A DNA stretch of 44,167 nucleotides from Priapulus caudatus (Eukaryota), in NCBI RefSeq assembly GCF_000485595.1, contig NW_014577061.1:165596-209762 (forward strand). The letters are read 5' to 3'. Position numbers and translations under genes: made by a program. Below, one piece after another: positions 1,281-42,532 of the stretch. Numbering within the stretch: the stretch's first letter is position 1; each line of letters opens with the position of its first letter. Below the pieces are notes generated by a model. That model searched no databases, was not told the DNA's origin, and saw only the letters and a list, made by a program, of their open reading frames with translations.

Positions 1281-1310
1281 GTGAGATCTAAGTCCGGGTG
1301 TTCTTTTTCG

Positions 1311-2260: not shown

Positions 2261-2262
<2 letters not shown>

Positions 2263-2346
<84 letters not shown>
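2263..2346. repeat. (GT)n(TA)n microsatellite
   Basis: Direct reading. Confidence 0.95.
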
Positions 2347-9824: not shown

Positions 9825-9838
9825 TGTGTGTTGTGTTG

Positions 9839-9869
<31 letters not shown>

Positions 9870-9892
9870 ATATATATATATTATATATATAT

Positions 9893-9944
<52 letters not shown>

Positions 9945-16056: not shown

Positions 16057-16094
<38 letters not shown>

Positions 16095-16200: not shown

Positions 16201-16352
16201 GATTTGCTAAAGAACGAATTGGTGGCGAGCAAATCTGCCGATGTACATATCAATCAGCGCTACCTGGTGTTGAGGCAGCAGGAGACCGAACTAGAGGGTT
16301 TAGTGCGATATACACAGGAGACGCTGCATTCGCTCGTTGGGTTACAGCAAAG
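16201..16352 (+). CDS. Coiled-coil exon after the F-BAR (DLLKNELVASKSADVHINQRYLVLRQQETELEGLVRYTQETLHSLVGLQQR)
   Basis: Acceptor ttgtttaag, donor AAG|gtaagt; 152 nt, phase 0-2, open frame with heptad-like leucines. Confidence 0.85.
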
Positions 16353-18162: not shown

Positions 18163-20324
18163 ATGTGGACGGTTTCCGAGAAACCCGCTGTGCTGTTGGT
18201 TATACGCGCACGGTCCCTGATTCCTATACGCATCCCATTAGAAACAGCAATAGGATTCTAGAATTCTAGAATTCTATTACTTTTGTGAATATATTAATAA
18301 ATTATTTGTAATTTGTAATTCTATACATTTTTGGAAAATGATTCTGTTACGTGTACTAACTCGGAGAAAAACTTTTTAACCTTTGTCTTTGACATTTCGT
18401 CTTCTATGTTTTATCGCATCATCGCAGCAGTCCAGATACAAAATAATTAATTGAAAAATAATCGAATAAAGTTCAGTATCTTGCTGGTTCAGCTATGCTC
18501 AGGGGAGTTTCGGTTAATTCTCAGTGGGAAACATTTTTCGTGGCTCAAAAAGTTGTGAAATAATAAAACTGAGAGTGAAAATCCAAATATCATCTTATGC
18601 ATTAGCTGACTTAACAAATCCTGTCACTTTAACCGTTGGAGTTCTATTTAGCTGTAATTAATTAAATGAGGCTGGCTGGTCTTTTGGTTGTATTTTTCAC
18701 TTCTTGTTGCCACATTTTGCCTTCACAAAAACGCATGTATGTCTAACGCTAAATATAGTAACCCGAATAATCATATGAAATGTGATATTATAATTGTGGA
18801 AGTTGTTCACACTGCTAGTACACCGAATTCCTGAACTTCTCTTGACATAGATATAGTGTCAATTTATCAGCGCCACCTGTTAGCGGTACAGCGTCGCTTG
18901 TGGTAGAGCAAACATTACACTCTGTCACTAATTAATTTTAATTTAATTTAAATTTTAGTTTTTAATTGCACTAAGTCTTAATGCCACTCTTAATGCGGTT
19001 TTAATTGCACAAACCCAAAACAAATTGCCAAACTGATATTCTCACATGTCTATGCTGATACGTCTAATGCAACGATTTAATGAGGCGAGATGTGAGAAAG
19101 CAAAAATTTTAGTGGATATAGATACTTTTACTAGAATAGTTGGTCTTATAAATTACACTGAGTGACAGTGCATGTGAGTGCTTTAGAATGCGAATACGCT
19201 TTCACCGATATCTGTTCAGTAAATGCAATTTAAATTATTAACTGTAAAATGGTACATATATGAGAAGTATATCACGCATCAACATTGCATCCGACAATAT
19301 ATACCTGTATACCAGTATACCAGTACATATATATATATATATATACATACATATTAAGTACAATTTCTATGTTGTGATAAATTTCAATAAAATAACGACA
19401 CCACAGCGGATATACCTTACAGTGCACTAGACTATGCCATTAATTCATATTCTACGCTTGACTATACGTATTATGCCGTCTGATCCACGATTGTTCAATC
19501 TGTGTACTCTATATGTAGCTGGCTCGTACGAAGCCCTGTGATGTGCTTACATATATATAGAGAGAGAGAGAGAAGTCGACACTTCATTGTAACACGGGCT
19601 TGATGGATCTGTTTGATCTGTGCTCGTGAATCGGGGTAGCTACATGGCATAGCCTGCATTCTCAGATTACACCCATATTTGCCGTATTACCTACCATCTG
19701 CGCAGCCCTCACGCAGCTGCGCTGTGGCACGAATTTCTAGATCCCGTGTTGTGTCTATATCCATGAGTCCATGAATTAGGATATACACCGCATCAGTTCA
19801 GGCCCGAGACGTCGTTACACACGCACTGTGAATCTAGAATAAACCAAAACTGCTCAGAGAAGAAATAACGCTGTAGAAATAATATAATTGCCCGCCTTGT
19901 ACTCTTTAATCATTTTCACGATTTATTAGTATCGCGATTGATTACAGAAGTATTAAAATTCGTTTTTACTCAAAGCATGACTTATGGCGCTGCACAAGTA
20001 CAGTTAGTACTAAAAGAATAATATACCCTTTCCAAAACAGAGTTTACCGCAATGGGCTGCTTTTGTTTGAAATTGAGACAGCCAGTACTCGGTTTCACGC
20101 TAATGTTTTCCGTTGCGAGCAAGACATTTGCTCGGGCGTTACCAGGCAGCATTTTTTTGCTACAACCAAGACCGAGTTTAAGTATTATCGCGTCGAACGT
20201 CCAAGAGAAACATCGCCTAATGCGTAAATTTTGTGAGTTTTCACGCATCATTACCCACGTATATGCATCGCTTTCATTATTCAGTTAAACCTCCATCGAA
20301 GATGGCTTAATAATTTAGTAATAA

Positions 20325-20367
20325 CAGGAGTTAATAAAGACAAATTATTTGTCTTTATTAGCTCCTG
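20325..20367. mobile_element. P/Galileo-like footprint (43 bp)
   Basis: CAGGAGTTAATAAAGAC / GTCTTTATTAGCTCCTG; perfect 7-bp TSD GTAATAA. Confidence 0.8.
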
Positions 20368-21035
20368 GTAATAACTAAGTTACTTAACGGCAGGTTTAGC
20401 GTTAAGTACGGTTATGGCCGCCGCATGTGCGTTTAATGGAAAGTTTCCGATTTATTATTCTATAATATGCTCTATAAATGCCCCAGATGAACGCGAATTT
20501 GCCCAGCGTAGGTAATGGCACATGGAGGAAGTAGGTGCATTATCACCTCTACAGCACAGAAGTCAGTCTACGTAAACGCCTGCAATGTTTACTGTGATGT
20601 TTTTACTTTGCTAAGAAGCTACCGAATACTGCTCAAAAAGATCCGCGTTCTAATAATAGGCTTGAAACGGTTTTCATAGGAGTGGTGATGTTGCAGCAGG
20701 GTATAACGTAAATTCGCATAAGCAGCGATAAAACCATTTCATATGCGTGCGTGCATGTATATTGGCCTACAATAATATGCGATACTATGTTTCTATGCAT
20801 CTTGGCACTGTAGCCAGATGAGCTTAGCGAAAACTTTGTTGTAAATATAGGTGCCACGTCTGTGCCGAAAATGGTTTCACGAATAGGTGGCATGAATTTA
20901 TGCCAAAAGTAATCAATTATACTAGTTTTAAATTATTTCAGTGCCGGCCGGGCTAGGGTCTCTCAAGAAATAATAACTATGAAGTGATTAGGAGTCGAGA
21001 AATTATCATGTTCGTTCTGTGCATGCATCCCTGCT

Positions 21036-21040
<5 letters not shown>

Positions 21041-21101
<61 letters not shown>

Positions 21102-21215
21102 TCTCTTCTCTCTTAACTGTAGCCCTAACTTCCATCTTAACACTAGCCCTACCACTACCGCTAACCCTAACGCTAACTCTAACCTTAACGCTAACCCTAA
21201 ACCCAACTCTAAGCC
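21041..21215. repeat. (CT)n followed by degenerate CCCTAA-like hexamers
   Basis: Direct reading. Confidence 0.8.
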
Positions 21216-22667
21216 TATGACAACACAAGGCAAACAACGATGATGAATACAGATTAAGACCAACCCACCGTCCTACGTTCTTTTGATGGGTTATTGGCAT
21301 TTGCTATCTCATACATACCTGCTATCTGGTCACGAAATAGACCAAGAGTAGAACCAAAAGATGTGGTTGTGAAAACAAAATTAATATTAATTGTTGTCTG
21401 CTCCGGTGGATGTGTTCGTGCAAAATCACTTGATAGAAGCCAGATAACTCTAACTCTAACCAATGTTTCCTACCCACTACAACGAGGATTGAACAACCAC
21501 AAATATAGGAATCACAGGCCTTTCAAGTACTGTAAAAACTGTATTCACATACATTTTTGTTCAACCGGCTCAGGCGTTTGTAATCACCAAAGTTTCTAGT
21601 TAAACTACCGACATTTATTATCCTGACATTAATTATCCGACATTTATTATCTTGAGGGTTTTATATATGCGCGAAGAAAATGGCGCTCGCGTGTATGCAA
21701 CCCGTTTTAAAGCTTGAAAACTAGCACAACGTGTGCTAAAACACTGTAGTCCCCCAACCCTTCTTCAACCGTCTGGAACAGACTAGCTGAAGACGTTCAC
21801 GTTGTCAGATTTCATCGGTTAAAAGAAATTTCAACGTATTTTCTTACACAACTCAACAGTTTCAATTTCGAGAACAATCGAGTTCAAACTCACTGCGTAA
21901 TATAATGAGTCCAGCATTAATTTTACTAGACGCATCTGCTTTCATTTTAAATAAAACCCTACTGACGCTTTTTTGCTCGTTGTAACCAAATCTACGCAGA
22001 ATAACAACGGATCTGGGCCTCGAAGCCCGCGCAGGAGTTTCACTCCGAATGTCATAGAACCCCCTGGAGATTTTCAGCAAACCGTTATCGATTCATGCAA
22101 CTCATTACGAATGGAATGCCGCTTCAGGGAATAGTCATTTTGAGTTGTATCTTTTCAGTTGCAACGTTGCCAGCTGAGCAGTGGGTGATGAAAACTAAAC
22201 TCGTTGTGAAATTGTAAATAATTTATAGCATATATATATATATATATATGGGGACGTGTGTGCGCATATGTATGTGTTAGTGAGTGTGCACACGTGTGCG
22301 TGTGTGTCAATGAGAATGCTTGCGTGCGTGTCTGCATGTGTGTGCGTGCGTGAGGGAGTGCGCGTGTGTGATGATGATACGGTCACATGAAAATTAAACA
22401 AATACACAGACGCTCAGGCAAACAGCCACCCACCCAAACACACACGCACACGCACACAACAGAACACAGCTAGCTTCCTTATTATGTTATTAGATAACAT
22501 CTAGGTAAAGAAAACGAATTGTCATTGGCTCGCAAATCTTAGGTATACCAATGTTTTCAGCTTCGCGGAACGAGCGTTGAATGTTAGAAATGATTTTTAA
22601 ATTATCGCGAAGAAGAATAATGCGGAGGTTAGTCAGGTGTTCTACGCGTTGGCGATCTCGTTGGTAT

Positions 22668-22860
22668 CAGGAGTGTCATAATATAGTCTATATATTATTA
22701 TTATTATTATATATGTTATAATATATATTATAGTATATATGTAATCAGGGGTGAATAATAATAGATCTAGTCTATTATTATTCATTCCTGATATAATATA
22801 TACATATATATATATATATATTATAGTATATTTATTAGAGTCTATATTATAACACTCCTG
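22668..22860. mobile_element. P/Galileo-like footprint (193 bp) containing a nested second unit at 22746-22790
   Basis: Outer CAGGAGTGTCATAATATAG / CTATATTATAACACTCCTG, TSD TTGGTAT perfect. Inner CAGGGGTGAATAATAATAGA / TCTATTATTATTCATTCCTG, TSD ATGTAAT/ATATAAT. Confidence 0.82.
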
Positions 22861-23297
22861 TTGGTATCATATCGGTCATCACAATATCGTCACGTTTCCT
22901 ATTAGGCAGTGCCTGGCCGCTTTATGGTGTTTGTGATTCGCCATATGTACTCTGTGTGGTGAAGCTGAAAGCTCTGGCGGCACCCAACCGCTAAAACTAT
23001 CCGGCTGTCAGAAATTAACACGTACTATTGACACCTTAAATAGAGGAGAAGAAGCGAATCGCTGGAGAACTTTCGGTGAACGTGCGGCCGTAGCTCTGAC
23101 AGTAGCTAGAGTGTTTGGGTAGAGTGCTTTACTTACGCTGATTGGCGGAGACTCGGTAACCGACTCTTCCAAGCAATTCGTTGCCGATGGGGAATCTGTT
23201 ATACTTCACCGGTTAAATTTCAGTAGCTACTGACTCTTCATGAATTGGTGGATTGCTCCACTGATAGATGAATTTGCTTTAGTTTAGTAGCGCTCAT

Positions 23298-23541
23298 AGG
23301 GTCTATGTCCCCCAGGGTACTGCCGGAACGTACCCTGGGTACGGTCCGGTATACCGGAACGTACCCTGGTCACTATTTGATATGGTTAGGGTTTAGGATT
23401 AGGCGTTAGGGCTTAGGGTTAGTTAGAGTAGAAGTACGGCCGACCTCCATAGACTCGTTAGTGGACGTAAGCGAGGTACGGTCCGGCATATTAGATAGTA
23501 CTAGGGTACGCTCCGGCAGTACCCCGGGGGACATAGACCCT
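23298..23541. mobile_element. MITE with ~39-bp TIRs and internal TTAGGG-like repeats
   Basis: AGGGTCTATGTCCCCCAGGGTACTGCCGGAACGTACCCT mirrored at 23503-23541 (2 mismatches); GGTTAGGGTTTAGGATTAGGCGTTAGGG inside; flanks CTCAT/CTCAG. Confidence 0.8.
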
Positions 23542-23643
23542 CTCAGCTTTATAGCACTATAACGGTGTGCTGCGCGTGTGGCTGATGTAAGAGAAAATCA
23601 ATTTTTTCTAAGCCCTCGCAGCGTAATCATCAGAGCGCATTCC

Positions 23644-24650
23644 GTGTGCGTGCGTATACGCATATGTATGTATTGCAGCGTGTGTATTGTATGTTCCTTA
23701 CAACGGCTATTTACGTGTGCGTGCGTATACGCCTATGTATGTATTGCAGCGTGTGTTATGGATTGTTTTTCTTCCTTACAACGTATTACGTGTGCGTGCG
23801 GTATTACGATATGTATGTATTGCAGCGTGGTATTGTATGTTCTTTCTCTATACAAGCGTATTACCGTAGTGCGTGTGTATACGCATATGTATGTATTGCG
23901 CAAGCGCTGTTATTGTAAGTTCTCACAGCGCATTCTATTCCGTGCGCGTGTACACGCCTATTGGTACTGTATTGAGCGTGTGTAATGTAAGTCCTTACAA
24001 CTATTACGTGTGCGTGGCGTATAGCATATGTATGTATTGCAGGTGTGTATTGCTAGTTTCTCCACAGCGCATTCTATTCCTGTGCGCGCGTATACGCTGA
24101 TGATGTATTGCAGCGTGTGTATTGTATGTTCCTTACAACGTATTACGTGTGCGTGCGTATACGCATATGTATGTATTGCAGCGTGTGTATTGTATGTTCC
24201 TTACAACGTATTACGTGTGCGTGCGTATACGCCTATGTATATATTGCAGCAGCGTGTGTATTGTAAGTTTCTCATAGCGTATTACGTGTGAATGAGTATA
24301 CGCCTATGTATACATTGCAACAGCGTGAGTATTGTAAGTTTCTCACAGCGCATTCTATTCCCTGTGCGCGTGTACACGCCTATGTATGTATTGCAGCGTG
24401 TGTAATGTAAGTTCCTTACAACGTATTACGTGTGAGTGCGTATACGCCTATGTGTGTATTGCAGCATCGTGTGTATTGTAAGTTTCTCACAGCGTATTAC
24501 GTGTGCGTTTGTGTAGACTTATGTACATATTGCTTATAGGAAAGCGTGTGTATTGTAAGTTCTTCACAGCGTATTCCACGTGCGTTTGTGTACACCCATG
24601 TATATGTAGCTTATGGGTAAGCGTGTATATTATAAGTTCCTCACAACGTG
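23644..24650. repeat. ~68-bp minisatellite, about 14 diverged copies
   Basis: Unit GTGTGCGTGCGTATACGCATATGTATGTATTGCAGCGTGTGTATTGTATGTTCCTTACAACGTATTAC. Confidence 0.92.
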
Positions 24651-25242
24651 TTCCCTTTCGTGGTTAAATCAAACATGCTCTGAAGAGTACGCGCTAACCA
24701 TGAGCAACATCTGCTGTACCGTCATCCGCTGACATTCATTCCTGATTGAAGATATGGAAGGTTAAAATGCCCCTCAGTGTAACTCATGTATAAAAAAAGG
24801 ATGTACGTGTTTTTTCGACCCCATCTCCCATTCCATACACGCAACATCCACCACTCTAGAGCTCTGCGCTGAGTCAAAGGGCTTTAATGGGATTCAATTT
24901 GCATGCTTGCGCTGGAGGCAGCGCGGCAATTTGTGAAAATGTTTGCTTTGTAGTGGAAATCCACTAGCTTTTGTGCAGTGTTTTATAGACTCCGGATTTA
25001 AATCAAATTATCGCTTACTTTGCGGACTTCAGCGCATTTGGTTTCGCGTTTGATTAAATTACTGTAAAAAAACTAAAGAAACAAAAAAAATTCTGTTATT
25101 GCAAGTAGGTCAATTGGCTCATTTGCAAAACTTGGCTTTTTAGCGCTTTGCTTGTTCGCAATTCATTTAATTTAATAATCACGTAAAGCCTTTGAAAAAT
25201 TCATCAAATAACGTACTCATATGGCGTAGTTAGTAGTAGTAT

Positions 25243-25282
25243 CAAGAGCGTATAAAGAAGCCATACGCTTTATACACTTTTG
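25243..25282. mobile_element. P/Galileo-like footprint (40 bp)
   Basis: CAAGAGCGTATAAAG / CTTTATACACTTTTG; perfect TSD GTAGTAT. Confidence 0.75.
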
Positions 25283-25655
25283 GTAGTATATATAGTACTC
25301 TACACGACGCCGTTTGAGTTGCGAAGTTCAGCATATTTTCCGAAAGCGATGTCGTTCTATTGTCATGCTCTCTGGTACATGGATAATCGATGCGCGGGCG
25401 GCTTTATTAGAGGTTGTGGAATGGAACGGCGCAGTATGCGTGCGTCGTGCGTCATGCGTGCGTGTGTGTGCGCGTGCGCGTGCGTGTGTGTGTGCGTGCG
25501 TGTTTGTGTACGTGCGTGTGGAGCCACGATGCGCCGCCTCACCGCAGCTTCCATACACAGCCGAGCAGACGCTGCAAGCATCATCAGCATTCCGTAAACA
25601 TTTACTCCTGCGGAGCCTCGCGTTGCCGGCTGTTCCCGCAATAACACCGCCTGTG

Positions 25656-25690
25656 TCAGTTGCTCGGTCGTCCGCGCGGCAGGCAGACTG
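25656..25690 (+). promoter_or_regulatory. Candidate internal core promoter (Inr + DPE-like)
   Basis: TCAGTT at 25656-25661 (A=+1 at 25658) and AGAC starting exactly at +28 (25685), in a CpG/GC-rich stretch. Confidence 0.35.
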
Positions 25691-26273
25691 TAAGGAGATA
25701 TTGCGCAGAGGGGAGCGAGCGCAAGCCGCTACGGTCCCCCTCTTTCGGGATCGTGCGTTTTAATTCCTTTCGGGAGGAACGTTTCGTTATGCGTCGTTAA
25801 AGAATGCGTGCGCGAGAGCGCAGTGTGTGATTCGTATGTAAACTTTAACATCGTTCAACCTGAAATTCAGCATCGAGTGTGCTCAAAGGAAAGAGCAGGA
25901 GCAAGGCAAACAACCGCGCCTATATGTGTCGTTGGCTGTCCCTGTCGAGTTGCACTTGCAGTCATTCAAAACTCGGTGTTGACTGTTTACTTTGACCAAC
26001 GTAGTGCGCAGGGCTATCTTGTGGAATCGTCGAGCACAACATGCAACTCTGAGCAGACCCAGAAAAGGCAGCGCCCGCTCAGTCGTGGCTACAGTCGTGA
26101 CTAGCCGTGCGTGTGTAGCATCTCTAGAGTTATTAAACGTAGACGTAGACGTAGAGGCGTAGAGACAAGGACCGTGGTCGTGCTTCGCCGACTTGGACTT
26201 CACCGACAGCGTGTTGTAATTACTTCATTGCGGTGCGTATGCGAAATTCTTATTTGAAATTTTATTATGTAAT

Positions 26274-26307
26274 CAGGAGTGCCATAATCTATATAATGAC
26301 ACTCCTG
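26274..26307. mobile_element. P/Galileo-like footprint (34 bp = 17+17)
   Basis: CAGGAGTGCCATAATCT + ATATAATGACACTCCTG; perfect TSD ATGTAAT. Confidence 0.82.
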
Positions 26308-27373
26308 ATGTAATCTATGCTTGAGTTAATTAATTAGTTGAGTTCTCCCTTTGGCGTCTAAATACTGAAGTATCATCTGTTTATGCAGCTATATGTGCGC
26401 GTGGTGTGTGGGGTGTGCGTGCGTGTGTGCGTGCGTGCGTGTGCGTGCGTGCGTGCATACGTGCGTGCGTGCGTGCCAATAGTTGCAGGTTTATAATGAA
26501 AAAAGTTTCTAAATCAGTTGTCGTGTTCATGCGTATTCATTATTTCTACAGTTCACTTGTAAAATACGAAGCACCTATATACAGTACATCGTTTTAATAC
26601 GAGTAGGTTTATACATAAGGTATTAGCCGGCTGTCGGGTATACACCTACTCTATGTAACATTGTTTGCATACAAATGAACTTCCGATTGTTCGTTAGGCA
26701 TGAAGAATATTCTTCAGGCGTTTCAATAACAAAAAAGGAGTAGCATGGGCTGTGCGTCTGCGATTTAATAAGCATAGACTGAGCTAATACACATGCTGTA
26801 ATCACAAACATTCAAAATATACATAGGGTACGAGTCAAACATCAACAACCCATCTCCTTAAAATAAGTTTTCTTGTTATTTCAATCTACCACGAACGATT
26901 AAAGCGATTACATTAGCTCCTAACTGCTAGGCTGGCCAACTCATAATGCCAAATTCCGTCAGTGAATCCGCGATTTTTGTTTATGCTAAAGAGAGCAGGC
27001 ATTTATCTCGTTTATTCGAAATTGTTTAATCCAGGCGCTTTGGAAAATGCGTCTGATATCTACTGAACCCGCGAATTAACTACACAATAGCTGTCCACGT
27101 CGCTAATTGAGCTTCATCACCTGCCATTGTTAAGATGCAACTAGCTCGTGTTAATTGGTGCGTTTCGGAGGCTGCATGTATAGCAGCTAACGTATTAGTG
27201 GTGAAAAGGAATAGGATAATTCGCTATAGACGTGAATTTCGGATAGTATTCCATCTGTAACCGTGTGCTTTTTACTTCAACTTGATCTATTACAGTTCTT
27301 ACAATAATCGCCCACACGGAACAGCTATGTAGACTGTACGTGTTGGCAGTACCCGGGCGCTTTTGATGGTTTC

Positions 27374-27445
27374 TTCTTCGGTGAAGTTCTTCGGTTAAGT
27401 TATTCGGTTATGTTCTTCGGTTAAATTCGGTCAAGTTCGAGTTAG
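27374..27445. repeat. Short ~12-bp tandem repeat (TTCTTCGGTTAAG-like)
   Basis: Direct reading. Confidence 0.7.
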
Positions 27446-28223
27446 TTAGGTTTGGAACGCCAACAAACCCACATGTTGCTCACATAAAATGATAGGGTTT
27501 GATTTCTTTTTCATTTTAATCTAGCGTGGGTGGCGTAACCACTGTGTAGCCTCTGTAATCATCGGCTTAAACAGATTACTTGGACAGAAGCCATGCCAGA
27601 CGCGTTATTGCCAAAATATTTTTTCCCGAATGCGTCGGCAGTTTTTTTGCCATTGAAACACACGTCACGACTAATCGTTTGGTCGTGTGGAAGACAGGTG
27701 CTCTTGCGAAGCTCGAGTAAAAGGTTTGCAAAACCCGACGGCTCTGACAACGCGGGTTTTGATCAGGAGAAAATGCGTCTACTATGGACAACATCACAGC
27801 ATCTTATTCATCACTGATAGAGATTTTCTCGCCGCATCCTGCCCTGCGCGCGCGTGTATGTTCGGCCTTGATCCACAAATATAAGCAGGGTTATGGTCTC
27901 GCCTATACAGCTCTCGCTTTCCGCCAGACCGGAGCACCCGCATGTGGAAAGGATCAGCGTTAATCACCGTCTTAATTGGGGTTTCTTTGAAAGCAAGAGC
28001 TGACCCACTTTTGCGGAGAAGTAGCGTAAACTATCGCGCCAGAGGCCGGCCGGCTTCTCCTCCGACGGACACTAGTCCATGTGGAAGCATCTATTGATCG
28101 CGTGCCGATACGACGTATGCGTGCAGCATCACAACAATCGCGACTTTATCTGTACCGCCATCAAAAGCGTACAGCACATCTCTCCATGCATCGCTCAGCG
28201 TCCCTCCTGGATAGAAAAAATAC

Positions 28224-28387
28224 CAGGAGTGTCATAATAATAGACATCTATATTATCAAGAGCTAATAATACCTCTTATTAGGCTTTCTTATTCGTATAA
28301 TACCTTTTATTCAGTATTCTTATTCTTATAATACCTCTTATTAGGTATCTTTGGGTATTATTAGCTCGTGATATTATGGCACTCCTG
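28224..28387. mobile_element. P/Galileo-like footprint with a nested CAAGAG-family unit at 28257-28370
   Basis: Outer CAGGAGTGTCATAAT / ATTATGGCACTCCTG, TSD AAAATAC/AAAATAT. Inner CAAGAGCTAATAATACC / GGTATTATTAGCTCGTG, perfect TSD ATATTAT. Confidence 0.82.
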
Positions 28388-30259
28388 AAAATATGGCAGT
28401 GTGACTTTTATTAGATTCTTGCAAATTTGATGGCGGGGGAGCGATAACGTGGAATATCGACGTGCCAGCCCGAATGTGGATTAAGCGAAGACTTGGCATA
28501 CACCGTCTACACTTCACGACGGGGTATCACTTTTCATAGATTCTTTCTCCCGAAACAAAACTAACGAAGTTTAAGAAACCGTTAACAGCTGGGAGATGAA
28601 TTGCTGCTAGTGTTGCCACATGGAAAACAAATAGGTCTTCGTTGGCCTATACCGGATAAGAGAAAAAAAACGGTGCCAATCTCTGCCTTAGTTGTATCCA
28701 AATGATAAATCTAGATCGCGTTACCTTCCCCCAAGTGGTACACACCGCATGCAGTAGCGCCAGCCCGGGAATTGCCCTGGCTGAGTTTATATGTGCGATT
28801 CGAGGGAGCGTAGGCGCAGACCCCAGAGAGGGGAACGTTTCAACGTAAATACTGTCTGACAGATGGCATAAATGAGCCTCATTCGCGCAAGTTCGTCTTG
28901 CAAGCACACATGCATCATTAGCTCTCGCGCGTAGCGTGGGCGGTAGATGTAAACTGGGCACAGCGTGTGAAGCGGGACACCTACGTTTATTCGATATTCG
29001 ATATTCGTAACTATATGTGACGTTTTTTGTCGTCATTTGTATTAAATTATCGCCCGCTGTTGGCTGTTGTATTTTAAACATTTCCATCTGTGTCTTCCAT
29101 CTGGATGAATGATGAGAAGTAATTTATTTTTAAAAAATAGATATAGTTATCACAGTTAATTAGGTGTTAGCTACAGATTTCAGTGTCATATTTAACTATG
29201 TTAAAATAACTATAAAGCTAAAACCGTAGGTGGGTAGTAGGTGGGTAATAGGTGGGTAGGTAGGTATGTATAGACAGTAGATGGGTAATAATTATTGGAC
29301 CTATAAACGTCTCCTTTCTAAGTCTGTTGAGAACATCAAATTTACAGCCAGTGGGGGTTCAGTGCCCACAATTCTACACCCAACAGGGTTGTTAAATTTA
29401 TTTCATAAGTATGCTTGCGGTATATTTTGGGAACAATGACTCGTTATGTACTTGGCGTGCGGTAATTCAACGCGAACGCCAATGGCACATATCATTATTT
29501 AATAAGATCATTAGAACAGCGGGTATAGTGTTAAATAATATATAGGACTGCGATGGTGTAGGCAATCAAAACTACTAAGCTTCAGCGCTAGATAGATAGT
29601 GAATATAATTTCTAAAGGATATAATGATTGCATACATTTATACATGACCTGCTCCGCAATAAAATTGTGCATGAATAATTGCTAAGTAAATGTAGGGTAA
29701 AATTGCGGTAGAGCAGAGCAAGAATATGAATGGCGGAGGTGAAATGCAGTTTACTTGATACTTCAGTGTAATCTCGTGAAGATTGAATGTGAGTGTACGT
29801 TATATCAGGGGTTAATAATGACAAATGTCACTTATATTTCATAGTCTTTTGTATATGCTTTTTTTTGTATTTCCCCTGGTTATATGCATGCCGATACGGT
29901 CGCTTACTGAGGCAAACCCGATGTGAAATGTTCGTGTTGTCGCTTTCATGAGATCGCAGGGCAATTATCTGGGTTTTTTCTACGTAAAAGTAGCTAAATA
30001 TCATCCCTGCTCTCTCGCAAAGATAACACTCTTAACCCCCGACAAACGGTGATTTCTTTTCGTTTTAGAGACAGCTGTAATTTTCTTTGCAAAGCGAGCC
30101 GAACGTTGTTTAGGTAACATCTTGTTCCAGGAGCGCGAGAATTCGTTCAGCAGGGTATAGTAGGCAAAGCCTGGCAAGATGTAACCACGAGCGTAGCCGA
30201 GTCTGTATTTTATACTGTCTACTGCTGAACAAAGTCAATCCTGTGGTAGCGGTGCCAGG

Positions 30260-30450
30260 TAGCCAGCTATCTCTTCTATAAGCACTTGCTAACCAGCTAT
30301 CTCACCTACATTTCTACGAAAGTAGTTGCTAGCAAGCTATCTCTTCTATATTGCTACGAAAGGACTTGATTGCTAGCAAGCTACCTCATCTATATTGCTA
30401 CGAAACGACTTGCTAGCAAGCGATCTCTTCTATATTGTTGCGTAAGCACT
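30260..30450. repeat. Degenerate ~40-45-bp tandem repeat
   Basis: Recurrent TTGCTAGCAAGCTATCTCTTCTATATTGCTACGAA. Confidence 0.8.
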
Positions 30451-30852
30451 TTTCTCGAAACTCCTGCGGCTTTAGTAGTACCGTATAAACGTATCTATAA
30501 ACTGTCATAAACATATCCACTTAATCAAGAGCCGGATACTTTATAACGATTCCCGATAGGGATCTGGCATTATCTATTCCGATTACGTGCATAAACGCAT
30601 ATAGACATGTTCTTAGTAATAACCTTTTGACCTTTTGTGAAATAGTGAACATGAAGCATATAAATACTTTATAGTAGTTTTTTAACGCAAACTGAGCAAA
30701 AATAATCAAGTCCGCTAAATAGTTCAACTGTTGAGCCTGCGTTAGTTCATATGCTAGTCGTAAATAGCGTCGTGCTAGCTAGATAAACTCCACATGGTCG
30801 CGAAACATCTGTTGCGAACCGCATTTTTCGTTTTACTTGAAATTTATCTTTC

Positions 30853-31156
30853 ATTTCGTGATGAAAGTGGTCATTATAAGCTCGGATTTTTTGATTGTGA
30901 CACTATACCTCCTCTTTCTCGCTATGAATTCGTGATGAGAGTGGTCATTATAACCTCGATTTTTTTATTGTGACACTATACCTCCTCTTTCTCGCTATGA
31001 ATTCGTGATGAGAGTGGTCATTATAACCTCGATTTTTTTATTGTGACACTATACCTCCTCTTTCTCGCTATGAATTCGTGATGAGAGTGGTCATTATAAC
31101 CTCGATTTTTTTATTGTGACACTATACCTCCTCTTTCTCTCACTATTTTCGTGGCA
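30853..31156. repeat. 73-bp tandem repeat, ~4 copies, running into an N gap
   Basis: ATTCGTGATG at 30928, 31001 and 31074. Confidence 0.92.
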
Positions 31157-31519
31157 NNNNNNNNNNNNNNNNNNNNNNNNNNNNNNNNNNNNNNNNNNNN
31201 NNNNNNNNNNNNNNNNNNNNNNNNNNNNNNNNNNNNNNNNNNNNNNNNNNNNNNNNNNNNNNNNNNNNNNNNNNNNNNNNNNNNNNNNNNNNNNNNNNNN
31301 NNNNNNNNNNNNNNNNNNNNNNNNNNNNNNNNNNNNNNNNNNNNNNNNNNNNNNNNNNNNNNNNNNNNNNNNNNNNNNNNNNNNNNNNNNNNNNNNNNNN
31401 NNNNNNNNNNNNNNNNNNNNNNNNNNNNNNNNNNNNNNNNNNNNNNNNNNNNNNNNNNNNNNNNNNNNNNNNNNNNNNNNNNNNNNNNNNNNNNNNNNNN
31501 NNNNNNNNNNNNNNNNNNN
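31157..31519. other. Assembly gap (others at 37303-37861, 38991-39098, 40819-41422)
   Basis: Runs of N. Confidence 1.
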
Positions 31520-31916
31520 GCGCGCGCGCGCGTGCGCGTTTGATCCCACTCTGTAACGTAACACGCGCGATTAGGAAAACTCATTATAACACTCTCGACC
31601 TGTGGGTGCGTGCATTAGTGCGTATGATGGGCTCGTGCATGCGAGCGTGTGCGTGCGTGTATGCGCGGGCATATATAGGTATGCGTGTGTGGGCGCTCGT
31701 GATAATGGCATCAGGTGCGTTCTATTTATCTCTGTCCCAACGTTTGATAGACATCAGTTGTGGCAAGAACCCAGTGACATGATGTTAATGTATTCTCGGT
31801 AATGGTTTTGCTATCGTTGGCGTCCATCAGTAATTGTTGCGCTGATTGCTAGTGTCCATCAATCAGTATACGCAAATATTGATTATTGATTCTGCTAGTG
31901 CTCGTCTTCCTCGCAG

Positions 31917-31976
31917 AGTGAACAATGCCTCTAAAACCAACGAGGACATTGATTACATATTCACTGAATGCCACTG
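31917..31976 (+). CDS. Putative 60-nt cassette exon (VNNASKTNEDIDYIFTECHW)
   Basis: Acceptor cgtcttcctcgcag, donor CTG|gtgaat; exactly 60 nt, phase 2-2, no stop in the frame set by both flanking exons. Confidence 0.6.
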
Positions 31977-32441
31977 GTGAATTGTCTATATGTCAACTTT
32001 TTATGAGGGGTATATTTGTGAGAATAGAGTAGTTGCTGCACGGAGATTCTGATACAACAGCACAGAAATATATCGTTGAAGTCTTACCTGGTCGAAATGT
32101 GTTTACAGTTGTTTAGAATCCAAAATAGACGAGGGATTTGACTTGGTTGTGGTCGCAATAGGAATTGTATGCATATACATTTACATTACAATTACATACA
32201 ACAATACATACAATTACATATATATACGTATATGTATGTATTTCTATGGTAGTCGCTATCAAAACTGTACGATAGGTGCTTTTGTTTGTTTACATCGAAC
32301 GAAACGGCAAATTGGAAATATAATGCTAAAAAGTAATCACAAAGAGTGATAAATCCCTTATTTGTATTTCCATTGTTTATAATGCCAAATAACAGTATTC
32401 TGGTGTTAATTAAGGTGACATCGCCGCTCTACTGATGATAT

Positions 32442-32541
32442 CAAGTGCTAATAATACATGTATTACATAATACTATCAAGAGATACTATAGATATACTAC
32501 TAAGTGCTAATAATACATTATTACAGTATTATTAGCTCTTG
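32442..32541. mobile_element. P/Galileo-like footprint (100 bp)
   Basis: CAAGTGCTAATAATAC / GTATTATTAGCTCTTG; flanks ATGATAT/ATAATAC (2 mismatches); the filler re-copies the arm. Confidence 0.65.
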
Positions 32542-32666
32542 ATAATACTCGATATATAAACCCAATCGCTTAGTCCTTGTCGTAAAACGAGGCACTTGCA
32601 TGATGAATCGCATGATTAGTATATCACGGCATTATCTCAACGTTTGTGGAATTTGTGTAATTACAG

Positions 32667-32778
32667 GAGTTTAGACCAGAATCTCTACAACAAAGCTACT
32701 GAGCTACAGGATGATGTCAGCAAAAAGCGCAATGACATCCGGCTGGCGCAGATGCACCTAGCTGCCGTACAAGCTCAG
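32667..32778 (+). CDS. Coiled-coil exon (SLDQNLYNKATELQDDVSKKRNDIRLAQMHLAAVQAQ)
   Basis: Acceptor taattacag, donor CAG|gtagga; 112 nt, phase 2-0, in frame with exon 16201-16352. No further exon was confidently found in the window. Confidence 0.85.
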
Positions 32779-32937
32779 GTAGGACTGCGCTAGTTGCATT
32801 GTGTATAACATACAATCAAGAGTGTATAATATAGATTGTAATACTTGAGATTGTAATTAGATTATGATTTCGATTGTTAATAATACAGATTGTAATAATT
32901 GTAATATAAATTGTAATGATTGAAATATAGATTATAT

Positions 32938-33034
32938 CAGGAGTAGATAATTGAGATCTCTATTATCTCTATCTCTAATCTCTATCTCTATCTCTATCTC
33001 TATCTCTATCTCTAATCTCTATTATCTACTCCTG
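32938..33034. mobile_element. P/Galileo-like footprint (97 bp) with (ATCTCT)n filler
   Basis: CAGGAGTAGATAAT / ATTATCTACTCCTG; perfect TSD ATTATAT; preceded by an unpaired arm CAAGAGTGTATAATATAG at 32817. Confidence 0.8.
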
Positions 33035-33722
33035 ATTATATGGCTCCTACTCCAGACCTGGGGTCGGCAGCTGGTGTGTTTTCGCTTTCATATATCAGAT
33101 ACGCGCCAATCGGCTCCTTATATTATCGCTAGTTTGCTAGACTGCCGTTGCGGATCGTGCGCAATATCCAGCAGTTGTGCGAGCAACTATAACCTTTTAG
33201 CCGGCTTGGTAAATTTCCTGTTTTTTCTGGTAATGAAAATTCTTGCGCGGCTGAACGATCGAGCTAAAAGTAGTGCTCTGTGTTTGTTGTAAAAACCCTA
33301 AATCTCTCGTTATCGGGCTGCGAATTCAGAACCGTCAACCCAGAGATGGTTTTGTTGCAGATTTGAATTTCGGGACATCTTTTGAAAGCCAACGGAATGA
33401 GTTATTAATTTTGTTTATATTTCTTTGCTACAATTTATAGCGGAATCGTGTTTATGAATACGTTTCAAAAATTAAATCGTGATGTCATCAGGATTTTTTT
33501 TATCGGTGAAGTTTATCTTCCACTGACTTTCCACGTGGTGAACACATTTTCCTTTATCTGCCCGCATTACATTCATTGCGAATACGCATTTATTTGCCTG
33601 TTAGACTACATGTAACGATCGAGCGATGCGTTTTATTAGCCGATTTTAGCAGTAAAAATACAAAAATTCCGCCTTTTTCTGTCGCAAGATGTCGCCATTG
33701 TTCCCACTAGCATTGACCATAC

Positions 33723-33798
33723 CATAGATATAATTATATACCAACCAATATCGATATATATATATATATACCGATATATACCGATATATATATCTATG
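33723..33798. mobile_element. P-like footprint, CATAGATATA family (76 bp)
   Basis: CATAGATATA / TATATCTATG; perfect TSD ACCATAC. Confidence 0.75.
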
Positions 33799-33952
33799 AC
33801 CATACCAATGGTTTATTTACAGCTCTTATAGTAAAAGTGAAATTGTGTCTACAACCGACCGACCGAATCGCAAATGGTCCCGAAATTGATACGCTTAATT
33901 GTCAGAAGTCAGAAATTAATTGAAATAACATTAACGTGCTAAACCCCAAGTT

Positions 33953-33956
<4 letters not shown>

Positions 33957-34021
<65 letters not shown>

Positions 34022-34064
34022 TGTTGTGTGTGTGTGTGTGTGTTGTGTGTGTGTGTGTGTGTTG

Positions 34065-34104
<40 letters not shown>

Positions 34105-34128
34105 TGTGTGTGTGTTGGTTTGTGTTGG

Positions 34129-34159
<31 letters not shown>

Positions 34160-34200
34160 TGTGGTGTGGTCGGTGTGTGTTGTGTGTGTGTGTGTGGTTC
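33957..34200. repeat. (GT)n microsatellite
   Basis: Direct reading. Confidence 0.95.
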
Positions 34201-35935
34201 GGTGTGCGCTCGAAGTGACGACATATATGCTAGTTCTTCTCAACATGAACGCTGCGGCCTTCGGCTGGTTCAAACGATAAAGGTTCTTTTAGGAATTGCC
34301 TGTTAAACGTACTACGTAATTTTCAATATACATCGATGATAGCATGTTACTACGTTAAACGCGCAAAACAATAGTGATTGCTCGTCATAGCAGTAGACTG
34401 GTAATAAATCATGCAAATGGTCCCAACGCGATTATTTAATGGCCGAGTAGCGAGGAAACTTTTCAATCATGCTCACCGACTTAATGTTTCCACGGTTGAA
34501 AATCTGCGTTGGTACATAATATTAATTGGCATGACGGGAGTTGGAGGGAGGTGAGGAAAGAGTCACTATAGCGCAAGGCGGGCGTCTGTTAATTTCTGCA
34601 TCGCCTCATATCTGTACTCGCACACCCTGCAAAGACTTGCGTGATGTTCTGATGATTCTGGGACATGATCTAAGGTGTGTCGTGTATTAGTATCGTATTA
34701 TATACGCACACGAACATGTGAAAATGCTCACCAAATTATGACGCATTTTTTTGGCTTGCACTTCGTGATATTTTACTGCTGTAAAATTGGGCGCTGTGAT
34801 TCGATGTAAAATGGTGATGGTCGCGAGGAAGGCGCAGCCAGCATGAAAACTATTAGTGTTCTATAGACTGCAAACATTGAGTTTTCAAGTCACACCTCGG
34901 CTAGTTACCCATGCAATGCGTTAATCTCAGCAATCGTATTTTCCTAATTTTTAGGTTATAATTAATGCGTTTCTCCACCGGAATTTATAATGTATCTAAG
35001 CAATGTAGTTTCCTATTTAAGCATTTTGTGCATAACCGTATATTGATCAGATAGACTTAATACAACCCTGCGGCAATGTTTACATCGGCAACTGCGTCCC
35101 GCGTTTTCTAAGCGGAGTAATATTGACACAGCGGCTCCGTGTGACTCGGCTTCTCTTTGTATATATCTGTGCGTCGTTAACGCATAAAAAAATAAGCCGA
35201 TATTTATGTAATTGTAAGAAAGAAATTGAGTTGAAGTCACTGATTATTATTTCTTAATATTAGTTTATAGTGCTTTTTTTAAAGTGTTCTTTCGTTGTTT
35301 TACGAAACTGCTATCATAGACCAGACTAGATGCTGTTGCTGTACAGCCTGCAAACGCTTAAGTAAATTTTGAACGAACGGTCACAACGGTTTTTTTAAAT
35401 ATTTTGCGAACTATATTCATCAATTCACAAGGCTTACAAGTTTGTGCTGAAAGTCGCATTTCTGGTACATGTTCATGTGGTAATCAAGCAATGGTAGTGT
35501 ATATACGAACATTTATTACAGCTCTTCATCGAGGGCCAGCAGTTGGGGCAAGCGCCTATTAACCGGTTATAAGCAGTTATAGGCTCTCTGTTGCACTTTT
35601 TTCTTTTTAGAGTATGATCGTGCATCGCGCTAATCCTAGTTTTGCTGTTGCCTCGTATTCTATGCAGAGAATTTCCCTGTCAGTGTGAGTGTTCCGCGTC
35701 CCGTGGGGCTGCTCTCGGCATGCACCATCCTACGCAAACGAAACCGGCGTATAAACATTCACTCTGTGTAAATAAATTAGGTACATATCAATTAGGCATA
35801 CGCGCACGTATGTCACTGAAAGCAGAGAGATGGTACTGACAAGACAAGTCAACCTGAAATACATTGGCGTCGCGTATTCTATTAGTCAATATAACAATCT
35901 GCATCGTTTACCTCAGAGGTTACCAGCTATGATTG

Positions 35936-36072
35936 TCGTCTCTTTACGTTTAGTCTCTTACGTCTCTTACGTTTACGTCTCTTTACGTTTACGTCTCTTA
36001 CGTTTACGTCTCTTACGTTACGTACTCTTTAGTCTCTTACGTTTAGTCTCTTACGTCGTCTCTTTACGTTTC
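35936..36072. repeat. Irregular GTCTCTTAC/GTTTAC tandem repeat
   Basis: Direct reading. Confidence 0.8.
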
Positions 36073-37252
36073 CGCATGAAGTGTATATTAACCGACGAAT
36101 CTACCCCCAAGAATCTAGGTCAGAGAGCCTAAAGCCGTAGGCCCATGGCTTCATACTTTCTGATACGATGTCACATTAGCGCCATCTGTAGACGACGAAA
36201 CGAAGTTAACGAACTACAAAGAACACTCATATGTATGAGTGCAATTAACCACCTCCACGCGGCATTTGTTACGCGTTACTTTTATAAATTATTTTAACCA
36301 ATGTTTTTATTAGAAATATTCAGTTTAGGGTTAGGGTTATTCATTAATAATTTATTTTGCATTTTTTTTTTTTTTTTAGCGCTCACGCTGTTACTTCACT
36401 CACGCACTTACTCTTTCACCTTCTTTCCGAGTCCCTCCCTGAAACTGTTGTTTGGGAGGGAGGCGTAAAATTCCGGCAAAGACTATGTGAGCTGTACACC
36501 ATGTCTCAACAGCAAGGCCTTGGATGTTTCTAGAAAGCGAAGTTCTTGCAAAGCCGAATGACATCGGCTTGGTATTTTCAGCTGCCAGACTGCTGCCTGT
36601 TGCCCACTGCCTGAGATATGACATGTGTCTTGGCATGCCACATCACCGCTGCGTGTCTAAGATCCACCGCCAAGTGCAAAAGGAAATGTCTGACACTTTG
36701 TAGAGTTAACCGCGGCAATTTTACTAAGCCATGGGTTCTATTAGAACACTAGCATTAGCTAACATTCTAATCTAACATCTTCTAATCTAGCTAACATCTC
36801 TCTGTCATAAAATACCGACCGCGTAATTTTCAAATAAGGCCATGAATCTAAACATCATCGTTAGCTAATGTCGTCATGGATTTAGAGTCAACATACACAT
36901 TGTGTACGTAGTTTTTGCTCCCGACTTAAATTACCGATTTGTGTGTACGGAGAAAACTGACTGCGACTATTGCATATTGTGCTGGTGCAGCTGGCTGGTT
37001 AGTAGACCTAGTCTGTAACCAGCACTTACTGTCTCGTGACGTCCGCAAACTGATTGTGTTACTATTCTAGTGTTTGCTCATCGCACAGAAAGCGTGTTGA
37101 GTGCGCCGTGCGTGCCCTCTGATTCTCTTACGCCCCTCCCTTTGCCCCTCTCTACCTCTCGGCCCTTCCTCCTCCTTTAATTCCTTCCACCCATTCCCGT
37201 CCTCTCCCTCTCCTTTTCTTTCTCTTACTTAATCTTCTTGCATATATAGTAT

Positions 37253-37292
37253 CAAGAGCTAATTATAATTATATAGCAATTATTAGCTCTTC
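37253..37292. mobile_element. P/Galileo-like footprint (40 bp)
   Basis: CAAGAGCTAATTAT / ATTATTAGCTCTTC; flanks ATAGTAT/ATGGTAT. Confidence 0.7.
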
Positions 37293-37861
37293 ATGGTATA
37301 TANNNNNNNNNNNNNNNNNNNNNNNNNNNNNNNNNNNNNNNNNNNNNNNNNNNNNNNNNNNNNNNNNNNNNNNNNNNNNNNNNNNNNNNNNNNNNNNNNN
37401 NNNNNNNNNNNNNNNNNNNNNNNNNNNNNNNNNNNNNNNNNNNNNNNNNNNNNNNNNNNNNNNNNNNNNNNNNNNNNNNNNNNNNNNNNNNNNNNNNNNN
37501 NNNNNNNNNNNNNNNNNNNNNNNNNNNNNNNNNNNNNNNNNNNNNNNNNNNNNNNNNNNNNNNNNNNNNNNNNNNNNNNNNNNNNNNNNNNNNNNNNNNN
37601 NNNNNNNNNNNNNNNNNNNNNNNNNNNNNNNNNNNNNNNNNNNNNNNNNNNNNNNNNNNNNNNNNNNNNNNNNNNNNNNNNNNNNNNNNNNNNNNNNNNN
37701 NNNNNNNNNNNNNNNNNNNNNNNNNNNNNNNNNNNNNNNNNNNNNNNNNNNNNNNNNNNNNNNNNNNNNNNNNNNNNNNNNNNNNNNNNNNNNNNNNNNN
37801 NNNNNNNNNNNNNNNNNNNNNNNNNNNNNNNNNNNNNNNNNNNNNNNNNNNNNNNNNNNNN

Positions 37862-37957
37862 TACCTTTTAGGTATTATTAGCTCTTGATATCATCAGAGG
37901 TGTCGGAATACATGCATGTATAGACTATATATAGTAGTCTATATTATGACATTCCTG
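37862..37957. mobile_element. Two abutting footprints: a right arm ending 37887 and a unit at 37895-37957
   Basis: GGTATTATTAGCTCTTG, then ATATCAT, then CAGAGGTGTC...CTATATTATGACATTCCTG, then ATATTAT. Confidence 0.62.
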
Positions 37958-38953
37958 ATATTATGAACGCATGGTGATTGTGACGTGCTTGATATTAAAC
38001 GGAATTTGTATAATTTAGTTGACGGGGTACTTATTCTGAAACCGTGAAGTAAATTGTGAAACGTGATTACCTTAACAACCATGGGATAAATTACTGGGTA
38101 TCTAGGCTAACTGTAACCAACGACTGCAAACGGTCACTACACTTTAGCCCTAACGTTTAAATTTAAGCGAATTTGTGGTTTAAATTAACGTGCTATGTCA
38201 CGCACGTTTGCTGTACGTTTGTGTCGAACTTCCTGCCTGCTTGTTCGTGGATTGCTTGCTCTAAATCTGCCACGTGATAGGTTATTAGGCTTGACATAAC
38301 ACGCATAATTAAACAACAATTATTTATATCGCTCGTTTTTAATGCCAATCCTCAGCACGCAGCTGGTTTAATAACTCGTGTATACAGTCTATATGTGTTT
38401 GCATCAAGAAAAAAAAAATTCTTGACTTCTGTTCGTTGGAAGAGTGTTTGCGTATTCGCGTCTGTATGACTTTGTAAATGTTTTTGTAGCTTGAGAAATA
38501 GCAACCAGTTTTCTAGTAACGACGAAAGAATTGGGTTTCCCATTTATTAAAGTTTGTGTTTCGTTTTTTTTTGTGCTCGTTTTTTGTCAGCCTCCGTATC
38601 GTATGATCAATGTGCATGCGCGCGTTACGCGTGTTGGTATTGTTTTGCTGGCCCATTTCCAAATATCTTCGCACAGGATGAGAACCGTAACAATGTTAGT
38701 TTTGAGTAGATTTTGGTTTGATTATTGAATTGTCTCGTTAAACAATAAATATGAATACTTATATGCAACATGTATTTTTCTAAGTAAGGAGAACTAACTT
38801 GTACAGCGAGTTGTAAATGATATCGCTTTTGTCTAAACTCGTGTTGTGTGTCTAGACTCCGCATCAACATACGGTTCGCGATCGGTCCTACAGGTGGCGG
38901 TGCAGTGGCGATCGGAAGTATTATTTGTTTCTATTTTGCTTTTGCGCAGTTAG

Positions 38954-42471: not shown

Positions 42472-42532
42472 CAGGAGTGTATAATCCTATTCTCTATAGT
42501 ATACACTCTGTAATATATCTATATTATACACT
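42472..42532. mobile_element. Partial CAGGAGTG-family footprint
   Basis: CAGGAGTGTATAAT with two partial right arms (TATACACTCTG, ATTATACACT); no TSD found. Confidence 0.45.

What the first reader, a model, noticed from the sequence alone, without database searches (positions are those of the whole stretch)
20318..37964. Dense set of ultra-short CA...TG units with 7-bp TSDs: probable P/Galileo-superfamily excision footprints
Seen: 12 units of 34-193 bp in ~18 kb (starts 20325, 22668, 22746, 25243, 26274, 28224, 28257, 32442, 32938, 33723, 37253, 37895). Each has short inverted arms (mostly 14-20 bp) starting CAGGAG, CAAGAG, CATAGA or a close variant, and a 7-bp flanking direct repeat. Seven TSDs are perfect (GTAATAA, TTGGTAT, GTAGTAT, ATGTAAT, ATATTAT, ATTATAT, ACCATAC), four have one mismatch and one has two; they loosely follow palindromic RTANTAY. 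Interiors are not shared between copies. Known: Drosophila P transposase cuts with a 17-nt stagger, so end-joined donor sites keep ~15-17 bp of each TIR; the P-superfamily members Galileo and 1360 make 7-bp TSDs, and Galileo prefers GTANTAC. Inference: these are not MITEs but scars left by several uncharacterised P-like families, a record of very heavy cut-and-paste turnover that repeat maskers would file as low-complexity DNA.
Basis: partly seen in the sequence, partly recalled or inferred. Interest (0 to 1): 0.88.

Follow-up and report, generated by a model that had tools for sequence, protein, structure and literature searches.

The report
Scars of P-like jumping genes
Two introns of a priapulid worm gene hold 13 tiny inverted repeats framed by 7-base duplications, with ends that recur many times elsewhere in the genome; they are likely healed scars left where P-element-like transposons cut themselves out, which would be a natural record of a cut mapped biochemically in the fruit fly.

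Summary
All 12 units are at the stated places with the stated duplications, and I add a 13th (29806). Of 56 inverted-repeat pairs that start with CA, 7 have an exact 7-bp flanking repeat, against 0 of 917 other pairs and 0 in 40 shuffles. Public reads show the same ends at many other loci with different fillers. One unit is polymorphic: two other runs carry the empty site with a single 7-mer. Interiors are enriched for copies of the unit's own arms (p=0.0015), as in experimental Drosophila P-excision junctions (PMC2895639, Table 1). The DNA is intronic; one exon matches a Priapulus caudatus protein at 100%. Best reading: excision footprints of several 7-bp-TSD P-superfamily families (0.68). 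Two limits: no parent element or transposase was found, and retained arms are about 17 nt in two families but 19-21 nt in three, so a single 15-18 peak is only partly met. The scan's earlier notes held excision scars of other superfamilies, none P-like. New variant of a known kind.

The parts
20325..20367 (.). U1, 43 bp; 21-nt arms (family C, CAGGAGTTAATAAAGACAAAT), 1-nt centre; 7-bp repeat GTAATAA perfect
22668..22860 (.). U2, 193 bp; family A arms (CAGGAGTGTCATAATATAG, about 19-21 nt), AT-rich filler; repeat TTGGTAT perfect; contains U3
22746..22790 (.). U3, 45 bp, nested in U2; 20-nt arms (family D); repeat ATGTAAT/ATATAAT
25243..25282 (.). U4, 40 bp; CAAGAGCGTATAAAG arms with an inverted copy of part of the left arm inside; repeat GTAGTAT perfect; present in run X5
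26274..26307 (.). U5, 34 bp; family A, arms of about 14 and 20 nt joined directly; repeat ATGTAAT perfect; present in run X5
28224..28387 (.). U6, 164 bp; family A; repeat AAAATAC/AAAATAT; contains U7
28257..28370 (.). U7, 114 bp, nested in U6; family B arms of 17 nt (CAAGAGCTAATAATACC), 80-nt filler that re-copies the arm tip; repeat ATATTAT perfect
29806..29878 (.).
32442..32541 (.). U8, 100 bp; family B; filler holds a 16-nt copy of its own left arm, including a variant base that other loci lack; repeat ATGATAT/ATAATAC
32817..32836 (+). unpaired family-A-like end; probably an older unit into which U9 inserted
32938..33034 (.). U9, 97 bp; family E arms (CAGGAGTAGATAAT, 16-17 nt in reads), filler of TATCTC repeats; repeat ATTATAT perfect
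33723..33798 (.). U10, 76 bp; CATAGATA ends, TA-rich interior; repeat ACCATAC perfect; polymorphic, with an empty site holding one 7-mer in runs X5 and X6
37253..37292 (.). U11, 40 bp; family B, last base C instead of G; repeat ATAGTAT/ATGGTAT
37862..37887 (-). right end of a further family B unit, left part lost in the assembly gap; abuts the left 7-mer of U12
37895..37957 (.). U12, 63 bp; family A, degenerate left arm; repeat ATATCAT/ATATTAT
42472..42510 (+). degenerate family-A-like unit outside the finding; no matching flanking repeat
16201..16353 (+). host-gene exon before the 16-kb intron that holds U1-U8 and U13
32665..32777 (+). host-gene exon; U9-U12 lie in the next intron

Best explanation
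The units are real insertion-derived repeats with 7-bp target duplications, and they are likely immobile excision footprints of several P-superfamily DNA transposon families. Inferred steps: (1) an element inserts at a palindromic RTNNNAY site and duplicates 7 bp; (2) its transposase would later cut at the element ends on one strand and 17-21 nt inside on the other, leaving the outer terminal bases on the donor as two 3' single-stranded tails; (3) end joining, likely of the polymerase-theta type, fuses the tails directly or after rounds of copying the tail tips, which gives the AT-rich, locus-specific fillers; (4) arms and fillers are rich in the target motif, so new elements would land in old scars and give nested units. 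Shown: duplications, empty site, repeated ends, unshared fillers, arm-derived filler sequence, nesting. Not shown: the parent elements, the enzyme, the cut positions.
For: 7-bp repeat tied to CA termini: 7 of 56 against 0 of 917. Empty site: an 83-bp skip, equal to the 76-bp unit plus one 7-mer, in one X5 contig and 2 X6 reads; an X1 contig spans the filled allele. Ends are multi-copy: depth over 28232-28419 is 880 in X3 against about 8 beside it, 750 in X5, 114 in X6. Family B arm-to-arm joints from other loci: 4 of the 6 types shown keep 15-18 and 16-17 nt; the commonest (18 and 17) has 36 X6 reads and 4 contigs each in X5 and X3, and at least 2 of the 4 X5 contigs carry different fillers. 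Family E fillers start after 14 nt with AGG, giving arms of 16-17 nt. Interior 7-mers match the unit's own arms and flanks at 0.106 against 0.031 for other units, p=0.0015, 7 units. U8's filler copies its own left arm with its private base. Same anatomy as fly junctions: two tails of up to 17 nt with direct joins or templated inserts, 18 of 66 isolates with inserts (PMC2895639 Table 1; my count). 7-bp duplications with T at position 2 and A at position 6 are those of Galileo (GTANTAC) and 1360 (GTTNAAC); here T2 in 11 of 13 and A6 in 13 of 13.
Against: No parent or transposase: no genome was held, 43 of the window's 135 ORFs of 75 aa or more gave no transposase family, and the collection scans gave only chance hits. 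Families A, C and D share 19-21 nt between loci or arms, more than 17 (only 5 and 2 between-locus pairs for A and C). A family C hairpin of about 41 bp stands in one X3 contig at depth 59 (about 7 times single copy) and 46 X6 reads, so identical copies exist. Copying from flanks outside the duplication, which would prove origin in place, was not detected (p=0.61). Fillers reach 80 nt, against at most 15 nt in the fly table. The one unit with an empty site (U10) is the least typical, and its skip has an 11-bp ambiguity, so it does not by itself fix the duplication length at 7. Read tables showed only the top rows (15 of 46 and 15 of 33 joints).
Confidence: 0.68

Rival explanations
1. They are very small mobile non-autonomous elements (micro-MITEs) with 17-21 bp terminal repeats; interiors diverged after insertion by slippage.
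For: Many copies of the ends; one minimal family C hairpin in several identical copies; the commonest family B joint recurs in 4 contigs per run. The U10 polymorphism needs only an insertion. A similar U10-like copy exists at another locus (X1 record 6, 8 differences and 8 gaps).
Against: MITE families are homogeneous in size and sequence (PMC3698922, passages); here no two of the 13 units share an interior, and the read fillers shown differ from one another apart from 1-4 letter ones. A unit of 34-45 bp cut 17-21 nt inside each end would fall apart (inference) and has no room for the internal binding sites of fly P ends (PMC7776569).
Confidence: 0.14
2. They are the shortest internal-deletion products of abortive gap repair: a fixed 17-nt stagger, then a few bases copied from the sister chromatid before end joining. 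This would explain the 19-21 nt arms without a new stagger.
For: Incomplete synthesis followed by end joining is the commonest outcome in wild-type flies (PMC2895639). A 448-bp foldback with 203-nt arms and an AT-rich centre lies nearby.
Against: Abortive synthesis would be expected to give a broad spread of arm lengths (inference); family C stops at 21 in 3 of 3 full arms and at 20-21 in reads.
Confidence: 0.11
3. The parents belong to another superfamily, such as a hAT subgroup with 7-bp duplications.
For: [quoted passage not shown] CAGGGG starts resemble hAT termini (recalled). hobo also has T near the start and A near the end of its target.
Against: hAT excision hairpins the flank and leaves no terminal repeat at the donor (recalled), so it does not explain units made only of arm tips and arm-derived filler. 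Typical hAT duplications are 8 bp (hobo, 1196 of 1198).
Confidence: 0.07

Closest known systems
Drosophila P-element excision junctions (P{wa} assay, Chan, Yu and McVey 2010, PMC2895639; section with Table 1 read)
   Same: Duplicated target, two CA..TG terminal remnants of up to about 17 nt, direct joins or templated AT-rich inserts copied from the tails
   Different: Experimental, one site, 8-bp duplication, inserts up to 15 nt; here natural, many loci, several families, 7-bp duplication, arms to 21 nt, fillers to 80 nt, nested
Galileo and 1360, P superfamily (PMC4168063, PMC3276498, PMC3698922; passages read)
   Same: 7-bp duplication, palindromic AT-rich target with T2 and A6
   Different: Described copies have long arms or kilobase bodies; I saw no donor-site footprints or cut positions for them in the passages read
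MITEs of the P superfamily, such as BuT5 (PMC3698922; passages read)
   Same: Non-coding, terminal repeats, target duplication, multi-copy ends
   Different: BuT5 is about 1 kb, homogeneous (93% pairwise), 8-9 bp duplication; these units are 34-193 bp with unshared interiors
Natural excision footprints in rice (PMC4423477; passages read)
   Same: Excision scars with filler DNA found by genome comparison
   Different: Other superfamilies; scars keep few or no terminal bases and often delete flanks

Membership tests
P superfamily (P, Galileo, 1360) | Parent encodes a THAP-domain, GTP-binding P-type transposase | not testable with these tools
   No genome held; no transposase family in 43 of 135 window ORFs scanned; no parent in collection scans
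P superfamily (P, Galileo, 1360) | 7- or 8-bp target duplication | tested here: met
   7 of 56 against 0 of 917; empty site
P superfamily (P, Galileo, 1360) | Palindromic target with T at position 2 and A at the next-to-last position | tested here: met
   T2 11 of 13, A6 13 of 13; RTNNNAY 9 of 13 against 2.2% background; shared with hobo, so not specific
P superfamily (P, Galileo, 1360) | CA...TG termini, as in fly P and zebrafish Pdre | tested here: met
   13 of 13 start CA, 12 of 13 end TG
P excision footprint | Donor keeps up to 17 nt of each terminal repeat | tested here: inconclusive
   Families B and E end at 15-18 nt; A, C and D share 19-21 nt
P excision footprint | Locus-specific fillers templated on the retained ends | tested here: met
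   Own-arm enrichment p=0.0015; flank-only p=0.61; differing fillers in reads
P excision footprint | Same site seen with the full element in another allele | tested here: inconclusive
   Five runs laid on two stretches; the rows shown gave filled or empty alleles only
MITE | Homogeneous size and sequence within a family | tested here: not met
   34-193 bp; no shared interior among 13 units; one minimal hairpin form is multi-copy
MITE | Terminal repeats, target duplication, high copy number | tested here: met
hAT | 8-bp duplication in typical members | tested here: not met
   0 of 56 CA pairs with an exact 8-bp repeat; 7-bp hAT families exist, so those subgroups are not excluded

The most novel reading that the evidence does not exclude
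This genome holds excision scars of 7-bp-TSD P-superfamily transposons as a repeat class of their own, and their arm lengths show that the donor stagger is not fixed at the fly's 17 nt but is family-specific, 17 to 21 nt. The scars would let cut positions and natural end-joining spectra be read for enzymes never studied, and old scars act as landing pads for new insertions.
Probability: 0.35. Interest if true: 0.75.

Novelty: new variant of a known kind. Interest (0 to 1): 0.55.

Why it matters
The papers read describe the 17-nt staggered cut as peculiar to the Drosophila P transposase (PMC7776569 passages; PMC10983969 Discussion). Natural scars in a distant phylum would show the long stagger in the 7-bp branch of the superfamily and allow its length to be measured family by family from sequence alone. 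Thousands of such junctions, if the window is at all typical, would be a record of germline end joining. They would also be a class of AT-rich intronic indels (one of five tested is polymorphic) that repeat pipelines could misfile as MITEs or low-complexity DNA. The mechanism itself is known, and the units are intronic with no sign of function.

Tried and rejected
Whole-genome scan: no genome held. Metagenome scan with a 17-base arm: 50 loci, none with a partner arm; taken as chance. Viral-contig scan with a paired-arm pattern: 1 locus, no flanking repeat. Pfam on 43 window ORFs: one sub-threshold unrelated hit. Flank-templating test negative (p=0.61; there U13 was set one base too long, corrected). 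Other duplication lengths (4-6, 8-10 bp) rejected for CA pairs. A 9-bp reading fits only U2 and U10 exactly. Low-complexity artefact rejected by shuffles; folding z-scores for 11 units ran from -11.4 to -1.35, with U10 and U13 not clearly above shuffles. Assembly artefact rejected: X5 contigs, 2.3% diverged from the window (89 of 3859 letters), carry U4, U5, U6 and U7. Run X7 looks bisulfite-converted and X8 covered little, so neither informed the empty-site test. Literature: 10 searches; the listings showed no title on natural P footprints or on P elements in Priapulus; searches returned nothing and only noise. The library lacks most subscription papers and Repbase Reports, so this is weak evidence of absence. 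No supplements were read. Earlier findings: nothing by place or sequence, nothing for Galileo/THAP words.
Full report
Setting. The window is animal DNA with four assembly gaps. An exon at 1104-1280 matches, at 100% identity, an 824-aa protein that NCBI names as Priapulus caudatus LOC106805455 (1 hit among 3 candidates); it has C1 and SH3 domains. Mapping it back places U1-U8 and U13 in a 16-kb intron (16354-32664) and U9-U12 in the next. No whole genome was held.

Observation. All 12 units are present with the stated lengths and duplications: 7 perfect, 4 with one mismatch, 1 with two. An unbiased scan for inverted pairs with any terminus (12-nt arms, up to 2 mismatches, up to 400 bp) gave 973 pairs. 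Exact 7-bp flanking repeats occur in 7 of 56 pairs that start with CA and in 0 of 917 others (p=1.4e-9). No CA pair has an exact repeat at another length from 4 to 10, and 40 local shuffles gave no 7-bp case. I add U13 (29806-29878), a right end at 37862-37887 and unpaired ends at 32817 and 42472. The target has T at position 2 in 11 of 13 and A at position 6 in 13 of 13; RTNNNAY fits 9 of 13 against 2.2% of background 7-mers. U3 lies in U2, U7 in U6, and U9 probably in the 32817 unit. No unit lies in the first 20.3 kb.

Families and arm lengths. The ends sort into about six families. Between loci, family A ends agree to position 19-20 (5 pairs), family C to 21 (2 pairs), family B to about 15 with partial agreement to 18 (18 pairs). 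U3 (family D) has 20-nt arms.

Reads, first stretch (24660-30280; runs X7, X6, X5, X3). Depth over U6/U7 is 880 in X3 (about 8 beside it), 750 in X5 and 114 in X6; over U13 it is 173, 165 and 37. Loose ends at the duplication boundary agree poorly (0.39-0.72), as expected of many unrelated flanks. Of 46 joints 15 were shown. Six are family B arm-to-arm types; four keep 15-18 nt left and 16-17 nt right, two run further. The commonest (18 and 17) has 36 X6 reads and 4 contigs each in X5 and X3, and at least two X5 contigs carry different fillers of 11 and 12 nt. Family C turns back at 20-21 nt: 46 X6 reads and one X3 contig of depth 59, which means several identical copies, either one scar inside a repeat or a mobile form. 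X5 contigs carry U4, U5, U6 and U7, so these are not assembly artefacts and were not empty in that run.

Reads, second stretch (31700-33945; runs X6, X5, X8, X1). One X5 contig (about 200 and 145 letters on the two sides) and 2 X6 reads skip 83 bp at U10. This equals the 76-bp unit plus one copy of ACCATAC; an X1 contig spans the filled allele. The skip has an 11-bp ambiguity because the flanks happen to read TG before and CA after the 7-mer, so the length 7 rests on the other units. Thus 1 of the 5 units that X5 covered is empty. Family E copies elsewhere read A at 32952 (57 of 61 X6 reads) and continue AGG into differing short fillers, giving arms of 16-17 nt. Only 12 of 60 fillers and 15 of 33 joints were shown, and TA microsatellites dominate the depth at U10.

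Interiors. No two units share an interior. For the 7 units with interiors of 15 nt or more, interior 7-mers with at least three kinds of base match the unit's own arms and 25-nt flanks at 0.106 against 0.031 for other units (permutation p=0.0015); with flanks alone there is no signal (p=0.61). U7's filler repeats the arm tip ATAATACC twice within a 31-bp period. U8's filler holds a 16-nt copy of its own left arm with the T at 32446, where other loci read A: the copy was made at this locus, at repair or later. U4 holds an inverted copy of part of its left arm.

Mechanism. Fly P transposase cuts 17 bp inside its 31-bp repeats and makes 8-bp duplications (PMC7776569, passages). Donor ends carry 17-nt 3' tails; in Rad51-deficient flies 66 junctions include short-microhomology joins (27), long-microhomology joins (20), a blunt join (1) and inserts of 1-15 nt (18), many templated on the tails (PMC2895639, Table 1; my count). 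The units here have that anatomy. Galileo and 1360 make 7-bp duplications with consensus GTANTAC and GTTNAAC (PMC4168063, PMC3276498, PMC3698922; passages). I therefore read the units as footprints of several 7-bp P-superfamily families (0.68). Insertion, duplication, multi-copy ends and arm-derived fillers are shown; parent, enzyme, cut sites and repair pathway are inferred. A unit of 34-45 bp could not survive cuts 17-21 nt inside each end, so on this model the short units are immobile (inference). Very short remnants like the fly's long-microhomology class would escape my scan and were not sought.

What does not fit. Arms of 19-21 nt in families A, C and D exceed 17. Either these families cut further in (the novel case) or a few bases were copied from the sister chromatid before joining (0.11). 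Fillers are longer than in flies. Identical minimal copies keep micro-MITEs alive (0.14). hAT families with 7-bp duplications exist (PMC4455052, passage), so without a parent another superfamily is not excluded (0.07). No transposase was found in 43 of the 135 window ORFs of 75 aa or more, in a metagenome scan (50 chance loci) or in a viral scan (1 chance locus).

Novelty. P footprints are known from experiments, and natural excision scars are known for other superfamilies in rice (PMC4423477, passages). Ten searches listed no paper on natural, abundant P footprints or on P elements in this animal; the library is incomplete, so this is weak. The zebrafish THAP9 preprint's Discussion cites the 17-nt cut for the fly enzyme only (PMC10983969). 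Earlier notes of this scan held excision scars of CACTA-like and Tc1-like elements in other genomes and nothing on this DNA. Verdict: observation confirmed, interpretation partly supported, new variant of a known kind, interest 0.55.

Noticed in passing
window 17715-18162: 448-bp foldback element: 203-nt arms, 94% complementary, CA..TG ends, perfect 8-bp flanking repeat ATGTGGAC, 42-nt AT-rich centre. The repeat resembles the fly P target GTCCGGAC; possibly an 8-bp P-type non-autonomous element or an abortive gap-repair product.
   Followed up: partly
window 14440-16060, minus strand: Broken non-LTR retroelement fragment with frameshifts and stops, between TAA-rich tracts; motifs recall the reverse-transcriptase end, zinc knuckle and restriction-like endonuclease of R4/Dong elements (name recalled). 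Three fragments gave no Pfam hit.
   Followed up: partly
window 319-2333 and 8029-9893: The first exons of the host gene and their surroundings occur twice, 86-91% alike with many gaps: a local duplication or a noisy long-read gap fill.
   Followed up: partly
window 23292-23547: 256-bp element with 45-nt inverted arms (91%) and TTAGGG-like repeats inside; probably an unrelated MITE.
   Followed up: no
window 32801-32835: About 330 X6 reads and one very deep contig per run (depth 278, 65, 905) share both flank and arm here, so a family-A-like end sits inside a high-copy repeat elsewhere in the genome.
   Followed up: no
window 1-20317: No unit in 20.3 kb, against 13 in the next 16.7 kb of called bases; local hopping or re-insertion into scars could explain the cluster, untested.
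   Followed up: no
window 23630-24649, 30286-30451, 30855-31139: Minisatellite arrays with periods of about 71, 40 and 73 bp.
   Followed up: no
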